From contig JBFGLM010000001.1 in NCBI GenBank assembly GCA_041576165.1, forward strand, positions 1-64,000: DNA of 64,000 nt, in the 5' to 3' direction. Position numbers and translations under genes: made by a program. Origin of the DNA: Acidimicrobiia bacterium. Lineage in GTDB: Bacteria; Actinomycetota; Acidimicrobiia; Spongiisociales; Spongiisociaceae. Positions 31,373 through 34,015 of this stretch are shown one piece after another. Each line of letters begins with the position of its first letter. Within the stretch, counting starts at the first letter, position 1. A model generated the notes under the pieces. It did not search any database and had not been told where the DNA came from. It worked only from the letters and a program-made list of their open reading frames with translations.

Positions 31373-31400
31373 GAAGGCCCCCTCGATCGAGGGGGCCTTC
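31373..31400. terminator. Perfect 28-bp palindrome, probable bidirectional terminator
   Basis: GAAGGCCCCCTCGA|TCGAGGGGGCCTTC between convergent units. Confidence 0.75.
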
Positions 31401-31424
31401 TGTTCTGAAATCCAGCAACACTTC

Positions 31425-31483
31425 GTCTCACTGACAGTCTGTCTCAGTGACAGTCGGTCTCGGTGACAGTCTGTACCGGTAAC
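31425..31483. repeat. Tandem 16-bp repeat (about 3.5 copies, GTCTC[A/G][C/G]TGACAGTC)
   Basis: Copies start at 31425, 31441, 31457 and 31473 (last degenerate). Confidence 0.85.
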
Positions 31484-31656
31484 GGGTCGTCCCCGTCCCA
31501 GTTCGTCACGGTGCTCGGCAGCCGAGCCGGCCCTACCATCGACCATTCCGTCGACGAGCAGGCCGGGCTGGCTCAGCCTGAACCAGAGACGCCGCATGAG
31601 GACCAGCATGCGGGCTGAAGGATTCGGTGGTCCGAGTTGGAGTCGCCACCTCTGCT

Positions 31657-31695
31657 CTCGGTGAGTGCGCTCGGTGAGTGCGCTCGGTGAGAGCG
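31657..31695. repeat. Tandem 13-bp repeat (3 copies, CTCGGTGAG[T/A]GCG)
   Basis: Copies start at 31657, 31670 and 31683. Confidence 0.85.
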
Positions 31696-31720
31696 AGCGA
31701 CAGACTCTCATGGCCGTCGC

Positions 31721-31762
31721 TCAGCGCTCGGCCACCTCCAGAGTCCTACAAGAACTACCCAA
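31721..31762 (-). CDS. Putative 13-aa micro-peptide (M)GSSCRTLEVAER behind an extreme RBS
   Basis: TTG start immediately downstream of AGAAAGGAGGTGGTCCAAC; TGA stop at 31721-31723. Confidence 0.4.
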   Translation of the reverse strand: MGSSCRTLEVAER

Positions 31763-31834
31763 GTTGGACCACCTCCTTTCTCTGGTAGCGCCATGATGGC
31801 ACACGCAAGCAGGTATCGGCGTACTTTTTCCGGG

Positions 31835-32008
31835 TCAGCGATGCGACCACAGCGCCGGGCGGAAGTCGACGTCGACGCACAGGTCATGGTCCATCACGGT
31901 GCGCCGCAACTCGAGTTTGAGCTGATCGTCGAGTTCCGGTTCTTCGACACCGGCCAGGTAGGTGTCGAGCATGACAGGATCCCAGTCGGGTGGCGGAGCG
32001 GCGGACAT
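31835..32008 (-). CDS. Small acidic hypothetical protein (57 aa), missing from the ORF track
   Basis: GGAGGGAAT-ATG; MSAAPPPDWDPVMLDTYLAGVEEPELDDQLKLELRRTVMDHDLCVDVDFRPALWSHR*; GC3-rich codons. Confidence 0.6.
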   Translation of the reverse strand: MSAAPPPDWDPVMLDTYLAGVEEPELDDQLKLELRRTVMDHDLCVDVDFRPALWSHR

Positions 32009-33295: not shown

Positions 33296-33375
33296 GATTC
33301 AACGGTAGCCAACGCTGGGGACGACTCAGCGGTTCCCACCTTCTGGAGCCGACAACACCGTTTAACCTGGCCGGT

Positions 33376-33470
33376 GGAGGCGAACGAGCGCCTGGTGGGC
33401 TCCCCGGTCTTCAAAACCGGTGGGGGGTCGAAAGGTCCCCGGCGGGTTCGATTCCCGTCCGCCTCCGCCA
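33376..33470 (+). tRNA. selC: tRNA-Sec (anticodon UCA)
   Basis: 95 nt; anticodon arm CCGGT-CTTCAAA-ACCGG, long variable arm, T-loop GTTCGATT, extended acceptor GGAGGCG/CGCCTCC, G discriminator and CCA end. Confidence 0.93.
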
Positions 33471-33556
33471 ACGAGCCGAAGACCCATGCAGCGTAAGGGT
33501 CTTCGGCTACAGGGCCACTCGGCAGCGGCCCGCTCTCTGGTCAGTTCGACGACTCG

Positions 33557-33585
33557 GTGTCCGTCAGGTGTCCGTCGAGTGTCCG
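33557..33585. repeat. Three GTGTCCG direct repeats at 11-bp period (possible integrase arm-type sites)
   Basis: Copies at 33557, 33568 and 33579, between the selC 3' end and the integrase remnant. Confidence 0.5.
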
Positions 33586-33589
33586 GCAG

Positions 33590-34015
33590 AGATCCGAGAT
33601 ATACATGATCCATTTGCGGCGAGGACATCTTGATCCGATGGGAAGAGGTGTCATACCGGTCCAACGTCACTTGGATCGAAGAATGGCCGACCTGCGTCTG
33701 CCCGGCCTTCGGGTTGGCGCCGGTAGCAATCAAGAGCGAGGCGCACGTGTGACTGAGGACATGCACGCAGAGGTGTTCGATATCGGCCCGAACGAGCGCC
33801 GGCTTCCAATAGCCGGCGCTGAACTCCTTCCGGCGCAACGGTCCGCCCCTGGGCGCGGTCAAGACCAACGCCTCAGGGTCGGTGTCGGCGCCACGGGCAA
33901 GGTGCTCAGAAATCCTGTCGCGAAGGAACACCGGCCGCGCCACCGCCCGGGCTCGGTACGCCTTCGTTGGTCCGAAATGGAACCCTCCGCCCACCGAGTG
34001 TCCGAGATCGAGCAC
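33590..34015 (-). pseudogene. Tyrosine integrase C-terminal remnant
   Basis: GPTK...R.V, W..AL..A, HVLSHTCASLLI..GA.PK..Q..GHSSI.VTLDRY; catalytic HxxR Arg lost; frameshifts after TLDRY (HLFPSDQD in another frame); N-terminus missing. Confidence 0.85.

What the first reader, a model, noticed from the sequence alone, without database searches (positions are those of the whole stretch)
31373..31800. Transcript that opens with a 17-nt complement of the 16S rRNA 3' end: ribosome trap or micro-peptide mRNA
Seen: the minus strand reads AGAAAGGAGGTGGTCCA (31781-31765). Established: the actinobacterial 16S tail is ...UGGAUCACCUCCUUUCU, so this gives 17 contiguous pairs including one G-U, far longer than a normal SD. 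It lies a few nt after a TGnCATCAT -10-like element and precedes only a 13-codon TTG ORF. Two further GAGGTGG motifs and an internal GGACCACC (about 31626-31633) that could occlude the SD follow, then ~350 nt of apparently non-coding repeat-rich sequence and a perfect terminator. Inference: a dual-function RNA that sequesters or stalls 30S subunits, or a tightly regulated micro-peptide gene.
Basis: partly seen in the sequence, partly recalled or inferred. Interest (0 to 1): 0.75.

Follow-up and report, generated by a model that had tools for sequence, protein, structure and literature searches.

The report
Ribosome-tail-matching small RNA with mini-ORF
This is a divergent copy of a known but unexplained actinobacterial small RNA that begins with a near-perfect match to the ribosome's mRNA-docking tail and carries a tiny conserved reading frame locked inside a folded structure, which suggests it works by capturing and being unfolded by a ribosome.

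Summary
On the minus strand, 31781-31765 is a 17-nt complement (one G-U) of the 16S 3' tail. A TGnCATCAT -10-like box lies upstream and a 13-codon TTG ORF follows.

It is not a curiosity of this genome. It is a divergent member of Rfam Ms_IGR-5 (RF02471; 25.9 bits against a cut-off of 45). A model built from relatives scores the window at 141.5 bits and also finds certified members.

- blastn found the element in 40 of 41 related genomes, and the motif pair occurs across Actinomycetota.
- Of 121 distinct sequences, 118 keep an in-frame start 2-7 nt after the motif, and all 121 stop exactly 5 codons after GAG.
- The ORF's 3' half and its stop codon sit in a covarying helix. Its GGAC pairs with a downstream hairpin loop.

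Best reading: an independently transcribed RNA that captures a ribosome, and whose translation unzips its own fold. The peptide is probably not the product that matters. The purpose remains unknown.

Rfam's alphaproteobacterial CC2171 consensus begins with the same kind of motif.

Novelty: a new member of a known family whose function is unexplained.

The parts
31793..31801 (-). Extended -10-like box TGcCATCAT
   Evidence: Read. A TAnnnT-type or TGn-extended hexamer sits at the same distance upstream in the relatives listed. The sigma-70 consensus scan found no full promoter.
31786..31786 (-). Inferred transcript 5' end (the A of ACCAGAG), 7 nt after the -10 box and 5 nt before the 16S complement
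   Evidence: Inference from spacing. The RF02471 alignment starts at this base. No RNA data were available.
31765..31781 (-). 17-nt complement of the 16S 3' tail (a 'hyper-Shine-Dalgarno'), AGAAAGGAGGTGGTCCA
   Evidence: Searches show the site and its rank. Searches give the 16S tail of relatives. Searches show conservation with G/A at one position.
31721..31762 (-). 13-codon sORF (TTG...TGA), peptide M/L-GSSCRTLEVAER
   Evidence: Searches show the ORF. One search shows frame, length, start and stop conservation. One search shows the first codons lie in an AT-rich stretch (38% GC against 68% downstream in 121 of 121 sequences).
31743..31746 (-). GGAC inside the sORF, which pairs with the hairpin loop GUCC (pseudoknot) or alternatively with the 5' tail GUCC
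   Evidence: In one search the pseudoknot pair is CG 42, UA 23, UG 2 with 0 unpaired of 67. In one search the 5'-tail pair is unpaired in 12 of 70.
31723..31736 (-). 5' strands of helices Pa (GGUGGCCGAG) and Pb (CGCU), i.e. the last five sense codons and the first base of the stop
31653..31695 (-). Lineage-specific insert, a 13-nt unit x 3.3, at the position of the variable middle hairpin
   Evidence: It is absent from relatives in the alignments.
31626..31647 (-). 3' strands: Pb (GGCG), asymmetric internal loop ACUCCAA, Pa (CUCGG-A-CCACC).
   Evidence: In other classes the loop reads GAAUYCC.
31592..31613 (-). Hairpin CCGCAUG-CUGGUCCU-CAUGCGG with GUCC (31603-31600) in the loop
   Evidence: In one search, 5 of the 7 stem pairs change on both sides. 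In one search, all 7 stem pairs change on both sides. Searches show the loop covarying with the sORF GGAN.
31585..31788 (-). Conserved core of the RNA
   Evidence: Model R1 scores it 141.5 bits, E 3.5e-46. blastn matches of relatives cover about 31793-31588.
31401..31584 (-). Lineage-specific tail with a 16-nt x 3.1 tandem repeat (31425-31474). Whether it is part of the RNA is unknown
   Evidence: Not matched in relatives. Unique in the own genome. Tandem repeat.
31373..31400 (.). Perfect 28-nt palindromic hairpin between the RNA and the convergent PALP gene and 42-aa ORF
   Evidence: I1. One search finds the T-run on the + strand only.

Best explanation
This is the local version (probably Acidimicrobiia) of the actinobacterial small RNA family Ms_IGR-5.

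What the sequence shows:
- It is an independent gene behind its own -10-like box.
- Its transcript starts about 5 nt before a 17-nt complement of the 16S rRNA 3' tail.
- Three nt after that complement a 13-codon ORF begins, in an AT-rich, unstructured stretch.
- The rest of the ORF is buried. Its GGAC pairs with the loop of a downstream hairpin, forming a pseudoknot. Its last five codons and the stop codon form helices Pa and Pb with a downstream strand that resembles the anti-SD (..CUCGGACCACC).

Inferred mechanism: a 30S subunit is captured through the exceptionally long SD-anti-SD duplex, which supplies the energy to open the locked start region. The ribosome translates 12-15 codons and stops at a fixed point. 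In doing so it unzips the pseudoknot and Pa/Pb, so the RNA toggles between a folded state and a ribosome-opened state.

The act of translation, or ribosome occupancy, is the selected feature rather than the peptide. What the toggle controls is not known. Candidates are the RNA's own life-time, exposure of its C-rich strands, or titration of free 30S subunits.
For: Family membership:
- RF02471 aligns over its full length at 25.9 bits, E 2e-4 to 6e-3.
- It hits the same places as blastn in relatives.
- Model R1, built from 19 order-level relatives without the window, scores the window at 141.5 bits. It also finds all 99 other sources searched. These include four loci (L178-L181) that RF02471 itself scores at 82-100 bits, and a Mycobacterium locus at 60 bits.

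Selection on 16S pairing:
- The motif is the top SD-like site of the genome.
- Apart from the 16S end, it is the only copy of the 15-mer in 5 of 5 complete relatives.
- At its one common polymorphic base, G (129) and A (50) predominate among the 181 sequences tabulated (plus one T, and one C in a false hit). Both G and A can pair with the 16S U. The A allele breaks the internal pair in 12 of 70 sequences and still persists.

Translation:
- Of 121 distinct sequences, 118 have ATG/GTG/TTG/CTG in frame 2-7 nt after the motif. The other two frames give 0 and 26.
- All 121 of 121 stop 5 codons after GAG, with TAG, TGA and TAA all in use.
- ORF length is 12-15 codons.
- The start region is 38% GC against 68% downstream in 121 of 121 sequences.
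- A paper passage reports ribosome footprints on MS_IGR-5 homologues in M. abscessus and M. smegmatis (PMC4974804).

Fold:
- 93.5% of cells are paired and 17 of 25 pairs change on both sides. No shuffle out of 500 reaches this, and slid controls give 28-44%.
- A MAFFT-only test of Pa/Pb gives 86% paired, 9 of 11 pairs covarying, and 0 of 500 shuffles reaching it for three of the five measures (percent paired, cells changed on both sides, covariation score). For the count of covarying pairs 1 of 500 shuffles reach it, and for further pair types 103 of 500.
- The pseudoknot pair is CG 42, UA 23, UG 2, with none unpaired.

Peptide unlikely to be the product:
- The conserved residues coincide with bases that are invariant at the RNA level. 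GGAC and GAGGUGG show no synonymous variants.
- The N-terminal residues and the last two positions vary freely.

Stand-alone gene:
- The downstream gene is convergent here and in the order.
- Neighbours differ in Mycobacterium and Streptomyces.
Against: - There is no expression or ribosome data for this organism. No RNA run was listed.
- The Rfam score is below the gathering cut-off.
- Alignments A4 and A5 were fitted to the model's structure, which inflates pairing counts.
- The pseudoknot covariation rests on GGAU variants from one family (genera g268 and g63), so it may reflect only one or two events. A5 was deliberately enriched for these variants.
- The motif sets were ascertained with GGAC/GGAU and GAGGTG fixed, so the invariance of those bases in those sets is by construction.
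- Three of 121 sequences lack the ORF. One of these (L040) keeps the RNA with a 1-nt frame shift.
- If all 17 pairs with 16S form, only 2 nt separate the duplex from the start codon here (2-7 nt across the family). That may be too short for P-site placement, so full pairing and initiation may be mutually exclusive.
- The family is patchy. RF02471 matched in 44 of 151 sampled genomes of the phylum. Whole families had no match, although the strict filters also miss the window itself.
- The purpose of the toggle is pure inference.
Confidence: 0.6

Rival explanations
1. An ordinary micro-protein gene. The 12-15 residue peptide (...RT-x-EVA-x-x) is the functional product, and the RNA structure only tunes its expression.
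For: The ORF is conserved in frame, length, start and stop. Thr at the ACN codon is kept with all four third bases.
Against: - Residues 2-5 and the last two positions vary widely.
- GAG GUG never shows a synonymous codon, and the following codons change by compensatory pairs with the downstream strand. This is the signature of RNA-level selection rather than protein-level selection.
Confidence: 0.15
2. A non-productive 30S trap or sponge. The RNA binds the 16S tail so tightly that subunits are sequestered or stalled, and the ORF is incidental.
For: The duplex is 17 bp at -30.8 kcal/mol, the strongest in the genome. The spacer between full duplex and start codon is very short. A paper passage reports ribosome-protected fragments on homologues, which would also fit a trap.
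Against: A pure trap needs neither an in-frame start in 118 of 121 sequences nor a stop codon at one fixed position written with three different stop triplets.
Confidence: 0.15
3. A cis-acting leader, attenuator or 3' UTR element of a neighbouring gene.
For: It lies downstream of, and on the same strand as, an HTH_3 membrane-protein gene in the order. Short ORFs embedded in alternative helices are typical of attenuators.
Against: - It has its own conserved -10-like box directly upstream.
- The next gene downstream is convergent.
- The flanking genes differ between Acidimicrobiia, Mycobacterium and Streptomyces.
- A paper passage describes it as a separate sRNA transcription unit with mapped ends in S. 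avermitilis (PMC8780764).
Confidence: 0.04
4. A chance match or a decayed fragment of a 16S gene read on the opposite strand.
For: The + strand reads like the last 17 nt of 16S with one change.
Against: The similarity does not extend beyond 17 nt. The element is conserved with its ORF and fold in 40 of 41 relatives and in many named actinobacterial genera.
Confidence: 0.01

Closest known systems
Ms_IGR-5 (Rfam RF02471), 'Actinobacteria sRNA Ms_IGR-5'
   Same: - The 5' motif (A)AGGAGGUGGUCC, the GGAC...GAGGUGG block, the downstream GCGAAUUCC...CCACC strand and the overall length all align.
- One covariance model covers the window and certified members.
- Paper passages report it transcribed in Streptomyces and ribosome-protected in mycobacteria.
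   Different: - It scores 25.9 bits, below the 45-bit cut-off.
- In this lineage the anti-SD-like strand is contiguous (GGACCACC, with a bulged A).
- The ORF has 13-14 codons rather than 12.
- There is a 13-nt repeat insert and about 185 nt of extra tail.
- In the papers I could search I found no description of the sORF, the 16S complementarity or a function. The original paper (PMC3527728) is not held.
CC2171 (Rfam RF01867), alphaproteobacterial sRNA of unknown function
   Same: - The Rfam consensus begins cAAcaAucGAAAGGAGGUGAUCCA, followed at once by GUG UCU....
- Of 103 distinct metagenome stretches carrying that motif, 61 have a 15-35 codon ORF starting 0-3 nt after it.
- Of 9 such loci tested, 8 hit RF01867 at 30-45 bits.
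- The design is therefore the same: a full 16S-tail complement plus a short ORF in a terminated small RNA.
   Different: - The window matches only the 5' 24 nt and a terminator stem, at 18.8 and 21.1 bits against a cut-off of 75.
- The phylum, ORF length and peptide (MSS...) all differ.
- It is an analogue, not shown to be a homologue.
Dual-function sRNAs and leader-peptide attenuators (SgrS/SgrT, RNAIII/hld, SR1/SR1P, trpL/rnTrpL). The names are recalled; only the listing for rnTrpL (PMC6614838) was seen,
   Same: A short translated ORF inside a structured small RNA, where ribosome position decides which helices can form.
   Different: No downstream regulated gene and no codon run that would sense one amino acid. 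The peptide is not conserved beyond the RNA constraints. The SD is far longer than in any of these examples.
6C RNA, the other phylum-wide actinobacterial sRNA
   Same: It is widely conserved in Actinobacteria, stands alone, has C-rich single strands, and is listed alongside MS_IGR-5 as ribosome-protected (passage in PMC4974804).
   Different: No sequence or structure match. Rfam reports no 6C hit in this region. That 6C lacks an SD-led ORF is recalled, not tested here.

Membership tests
Ms_IGR-5 (RF02471) | Infernal score at or above the curated gathering cut-off (45 bits) | tested here: not met
   The window scores 25.9 bits. In 41 relatives, 29 match at E<=0.01 and 2 are over the cut-off. 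Those 2 are the unpublished genomes G028 and G039.
Ms_IGR-5 (RF02471) | Homology to certified members shown by a common model | tested here: met
   R1, built from relatives of the window, gives the window 141.5 bits. The four certified loci searched (L178-L181; RF02471 scores 82-100 bits) get 25-36 bits at E<=3e-6. Mycobacterium L110 gets 60 bits.
Ms_IGR-5 (RF02471) | Conserved 5' block AAGGAGGUGGUCC ... GGAC NNNN GAGGUGG | tested here: met
   Alignments to the family consensus. Sequence read.
Ms_IGR-5 (RF02471) | Long-range helix between the GGUGG region and a downstream ..GCG-AAUYCC-..CCACC strand | tested here: met
   Here the internal loop reads ACUCCAA.
Ms_IGR-5 (RF02471) | Expressed as a discrete small RNA | not testable with these tools
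   No RNA run was listed for this sequence. Expression is known only for homologues, from paper passages.
CC2171 (RF01867) | Infernal score at or above 75 bits over the whole model | tested here: not met
   Scores are 18.8 and 21.1 bits. Only the first 24 positions and the terminator stem align.
Leader-peptide transcription attenuator | A co-oriented downstream gene whose expression depends on the leader | tested here: not met
   The downstream gene is convergent. There is no conserved downstream neighbour across classes.
16S rRNA gene fragment | Similarity to 16S extending beyond the terminal tail | tested here: not met
   Local alignment with the last 106 nt of a relative's 16S covers 17 nt only.

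The most novel reading that the evidence does not exclude
Ms_IGR-5 RNAs, and independently the alphaproteobacterial CC2171 RNAs, form a class of 'ribosome-capturing' RNAs. Each uses a complement of the entire single-stranded 16S 3' tail to seize a free 30S subunit with a mature tail. It then runs that subunit through a fixed-length mini-ORF that unzips a pseudoknotted core. In this way the cell reads out, or buffers, the pool of idle and competent small subunits, for example on entry to or exit from hibernation, or after damage to the 16S tail. The ribosome-opened form would be the active or the degradable state.
Probability: 0.2. Interest if true: 0.85.

Novelty: new member of a known kind. 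Interest (0 to 1): 0.6.

Why it matters
Ms_IGR-5 is one of very few small RNAs conserved from Acidimicrobiia and Thermoleophilia to Mycobacterium and Streptomyces. In the literature I could search it has no assigned function.

This window shows three things about the family:
- It is defined by the longest possible Shine-Dalgarno pairing.
- It carries a mini-ORF under selection for frame and length, not for peptide sequence.
- That ORF must be unzipped from a pseudoknotted fold to be read.

Together these turn a bare Rfam entry into a concrete hypothesis that can be tested in model organisms such as Streptomyces and M. smegmatis. The hypothesis is that ribosome capture is coupled to an RNA conformational switch.

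The parallel design in CC2171 suggests the principle may be general.

Practically, the Rfam model misses the Acidimicrobiia branch. The site is also a perfect mis-priming target for universal 16S reverse primers ending in AAGGAGGTGATCC (primer identity recalled).

Tried and rejected
Expression: the look-up of sequencing runs listed no RNA holder, so no reads were laid. This is not evidence either way.

Paralogues: the other RF02471 candidates in the own genome (C28, C65, C150, C25) lack the motif when read, and I treat them as noise.

Strict motif as a census: the exact pattern found only 23 of 401 sampled genomes of the phylum. It is too strict, because 5 of 5 Streptomyces-like genomes that failed it carry an RF02471 hit of 77-100 bits. 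I do not use 23/401 as a prevalence figure.

A2, the MAFFT alignment of 88 sequences: the hairpin region is not in one register, so only Pa/Pb were counted on it. The hairpin was counted on the model-fitted alignments instead.

Swapped-strand control for Pa: perfect 9/9 pairing occurs in 124 of 148 own pairs against 515 of 1480 swapped pairs. The '>=8 of 9' measure does not discriminate (147 of 148 against 1412 of 1480).

The 5'-tail-to-GGAC hairpin (P1) as the main conserved contact: downgraded, because it is mismatched in 12 of 70 sequences while the loop contact is never mismatched.

SD pairing with GGACCACC (I3; the MFE fold): kept only as a possible alternative state. It is extensive in this lineage only and is not the covarying partner.

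Link to cysteine metabolism through the convergent PALP gene: the PALP gene is nearby in 38 of 158 loci, mostly the same order plus some Micromonospora. It is not nearby in Mycobacterium or Streptomyces, so I rejected this as a general link.

Literature:
- 'Ms_IGR-5' gave 3 papers and 'RF02471' gave 1. Neither describes a function.
- ncRv0812/0813-type names gave 0 papers.
- 'Pervasive translation in M. tuberculosis' and the VapC4 ORF-annotation paper do not mention the locus in their main text. Their supplements are closed and may list the sORF.
- The original description (PMC3527728) is not held.
- The PafBC paper cites it only in general.

Unpublished genomes:
- G028 and G039 are the only two relatives over the Rfam cut-off. 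Their loci L026 and L027 were among the 33 sequences listed. They were left out of A1-A5, of the scripts from then on, and of this report's sequences.
- G041, G057, G086 and G157 are among the 44 of 151 matches.
Full report
**What is in the sequence**

- An extended -10-like box TGcCATCAT lies at 31801-31793.
- The 17-mer AGAAAGGAGGTGGTCCA lies at 31781-31765.
- A TTG start lies at 31762, three bases after the 17-mer. It opens a 13-codon frame (peptide GSSCRTLEVAER after the initiator) that ends with TGA at 31723-31721.
- Two more GAGGTGG motifs lie at 31738-31732 and 31652-31646.
- GGACCACC lies at 31633-31626.
- A perfect 28-nt palindrome lies at 31400-31373.

The palindrome has its T-run on the + strand only. 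It therefore looks like the terminator of the convergent PALP gene and 42-aa ORF, and for the minus strand it is a hairpin without a U-tract.

**The 16S tail**

The own assembly holds no 16S gene, so the tail was read in relatives.
- In 5 of 5 complete genomes of the same family, the 15-mer GGAYCACCTCCTTTC occurs exactly twice.
- One copy is the 3' end of the single 16S gene (GGATCACC...). The other is the antisense of this RNA's 5' end.
- With that tail, the window's 5' end forms 17 unbroken pairs (one G-U) at -30.8 kcal/mol. This is the best of 90,594 GGAG/GAGG-containing windows in the 5.1-Mb genome, against -27.8 for the next best.
- Similarity to the 16S gene ends at the 17 nt, so this is not a 16S fragment.

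**Identity**

A permissive Rfam scan gives a full-length but sub-threshold match to Ms_IGR-5 (RF02471): 25.9 bits against a cut-off of 45.

Conservation in relatives:
- blastn finds the region (about 31793-31588) in 40 of 41 related genomes.
- RF02471 hits the same places in 29 of 41. Two of those are over the cut-off, and both are unpublished genomes.

Evidence from a purpose-built model:
- I built covariance model R1 from 19 order-level relatives, without the window.
- R1 scores the window at 141.5 bits (31788-31585).
- It finds all 99 other sources searched. These include four loci (L178-L181) that RF02471 scores at 82-100 bits, and a Mycobacterium locus at 60 bits.

The window therefore holds a divergent member of a described family.

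Distribution:
These came from Acidimicrobiia, Solirubrobacteraceae, Streptomyces, Micromonospora, Nocardioides, Mycobacterium, Tsukamurella, Kineococcus, Sanguibacter and others.
- The family is widespread but patchy. RF02471 matched 44 of 151 sampled genomes of the phylum, and 22 were over the cut-off.
- That run used strict filters, which also miss the window itself. Four of the matching genomes are unpublished.

**A stand-alone gene**

- A -10-like hexamer sits at a fixed distance upstream in all lineages looked at.
- In the window's order, the RNA lies between an HTH_3 membrane-protein gene and a convergent PALP gene.
- In a Mycobacterium it lies between Aminotran_4 and THAP4_heme-bd genes.
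- In a Streptomyces it lies between a DtxR-type repressor gene and a PNPOx gene.

**The ORF is under selection, the peptide hardly**

Among 121 distinct sequences:
- 118 have ATG (49), TTG (45), GTG (12) or CTG (12) in frame with GAG-GTG, 2-7 nt after the motif, and open up to GAG. The other two frames give 0 and 26.
- All 121 have a stop exactly five codons after GAG. For the 118 sequences with the ORF the stop is TAG in 80, TGA in 20 and TAA in 18.
- ORF lengths are 12-15 codons.

The start region is AT-rich, at 38% GC against 68% downstream, in 121 of 121 sequences.

The conserved residues (R/G/W-T-x-E-V) coincide with RNA-level invariants. GGAC and GAGGUGG have no synonymous variants. The remaining positions vary freely or change in compensatory pairs.

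One caveat applies. GGAC and GAGGTGG were fixed by the search pattern in the large set. They are independently invariant in the 33 sequences found by blastn.

**The fold**

The last five codons and the stop form two helices with a downstream strand.
- Pa is GGUGGCCGAG with CUCGG-A-CCACC.
- Pb is CGCU with GGCG.
- The two are separated by an asymmetric internal loop. It reads ACUCCAA here and GAAUYCC elsewhere.

Pairing counts:
- On a MAFFT alignment of 88 sequences, Pa/Pb are 86% paired and 9 of 11 pairs change on both sides. No shuffle out of 500 reaches the observed percent paired, cells changed on both sides, or covariation score. For the count of covarying pairs 1 of 500 shuffles reach it, and for further pair types 103 of 500.
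- On the model-fitted alignment of 100 sequences, 93.5% of cells pair and 17 of 25 pairs covary. Slid controls give 28-44%.

A downstream hairpin (31613-31592) has all 7 stem pairs covarying and carries GUCC in its loop.

Where the ORF reads GGAU instead of GGAC (29 pattern matches, two of them false hits, from two genera of one family), the loop reads AUCC in 24 and GUCC in 2.

Among GGAC sequences the loop reads GUCC in 120, AUCC in 5, CUCC in 4 and UUCC in 1.

The two candidate contacts for this ORF base compare as follows on an alignment:
- The loop-to-ORF pair is CG 42, UA 23, UG 2, with none unpaired.
- The alternative pair with the 5' tail is unpaired in 12 of 70.

The ORF is therefore tied into a pseudoknot. 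The GGAU variants may stem from only one or two events.

**The 5' tail is constrained by the ribosome, not by the fold**

At the one common polymorphic base of the motif (GGUG-N-UCC), G and A predominate. Among the 181 sequences tabulated there are 129 G and 50 A, plus one T and one C in a false hit. Both G and A pair with the 16S U. The A allele is the perfect 16S complement, and it persists even where it mismatches the internal partner.

**Mechanism**

Shown: the motif, the ORF constraints, the helices and the loop contact.

Inferred:
- A 30S subunit docks on the long complement.
- That binding pays for opening the locked start.
- Translation to the fixed stop unzips the pseudoknot and Pa/Pb.
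- The RNA alternates between a folded state and a ribosome-opened state.

Open questions:
- What that alternation controls.
- Whether all 17 pairs can coexist with start-codon placement. The spacer is 2 nt here and 2-7 nt across the family.

Rivals are a true micro-peptide gene, a non-productive 30S trap, and a cis-acting leader. I weigh these in the fields above.

**A parallel in another phylum**

- The Rfam consensus of the alphaproteobacterial sRNA CC2171 begins with GAAAGGAGGUGAUCCA, followed at once by GUG UCU.
After dropping 12 at contig ends and 5 duplicates, 103 remained.
- Of those 103, 61 have a 15-35 codon ORF starting 0-3 nt after the motif, 20 have a long ORF, 17 have no start and 5 fall outside those classes.
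- Of 9 loci tested, 8 hit RF01867 at 30-45 bits, below its 75-bit cut-off.
- A preprint passage says the conditions affecting CC2171 are unknown.

This is an analogy. Homology has not been shown.

**Literature seen**

- Passages only: PMC8079986, PMC8780764, PMC4974804, PMC6789036, PMC9094748, PMC13096801, PMC11701678 and the M. extorquens preprint.
- None assigns a function to Ms_IGR-5 or describes its ORF.
- The original paper is not held, and supplements were closed.

**Verdict**

The feature is real and strongly conserved, and it belongs to a known family. It is ordinary in the sense that it is not unique to this genome. It is interesting because the family's defining anatomy points to ribosome capture coupled to an RNA switch, a mechanism that has not been tested.

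Noticed in passing
window 33378-33466 (+) and 33362-34015 (-): A tRNA-Sec gene (Rfam 79.9 bits; ARAGORN) lies here. It overlaps the end of an ORF with a partial Phage_integrase domain (E 1.4e-8). This may be the edge of an element integrated at tRNA-Sec.
   Followed up: partly
window 31653-31695 and 31425-31474: Two short tandem arrays (13 nt x 3.3 and 16 nt x 3.1) lie inside and behind the RNA. They are absent from relatives, and the tail is unique in the own genome.
   Followed up: partly
L212-L331 (metagenome contigs): A large set of CC2171-like loci carries the full 16S-tail complement followed by an 18-26 codon ORF, often starting MSS. Of 103 distinct stretches, 61 have such an ORF, and 8 of 9 tested hit RF01867 below its cut-off.
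   Followed up: partly
L213, L214, L219, L229 and similar metagenome loci: The same 17-nt complement also precedes ordinary long ORFs. Of 103 distinct stretches, 20 had an ORF still open after 55 codons, and several begin MKRILIGTALALFG, which resembles a signal peptide. The motif is therefore not restricted to small RNAs outside Actinomycetota.
   Followed up: no
window 31835-32008 (-): A 57-aa ORF lies between the HTH gene and the RNA. It has no Pfam match and no tblastn match in 158 related loci, so it is probably not a gene.
   Followed up: partly
G000 (whole assembly): The assembly (161 contigs, 96.5% complete, 7.5% contamination) contains no detectable 16S rRNA gene.
   Followed up: yes
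control genomes of the genome search: Corynebacterium glutamicum, the one actinobacterium among the 14 named controls, gave no RF02471 match even at E<=10. Several anonymous families of the phylum also had no match. The family may have been lost in some lineages.
   Followed up: no
G060 (C126:9255-9458 and C17:3902-4104): One sampled genome carries two RF02471 matches (43.9 and 41.1 bits), whereas the other genomes show one.
   Followed up: no
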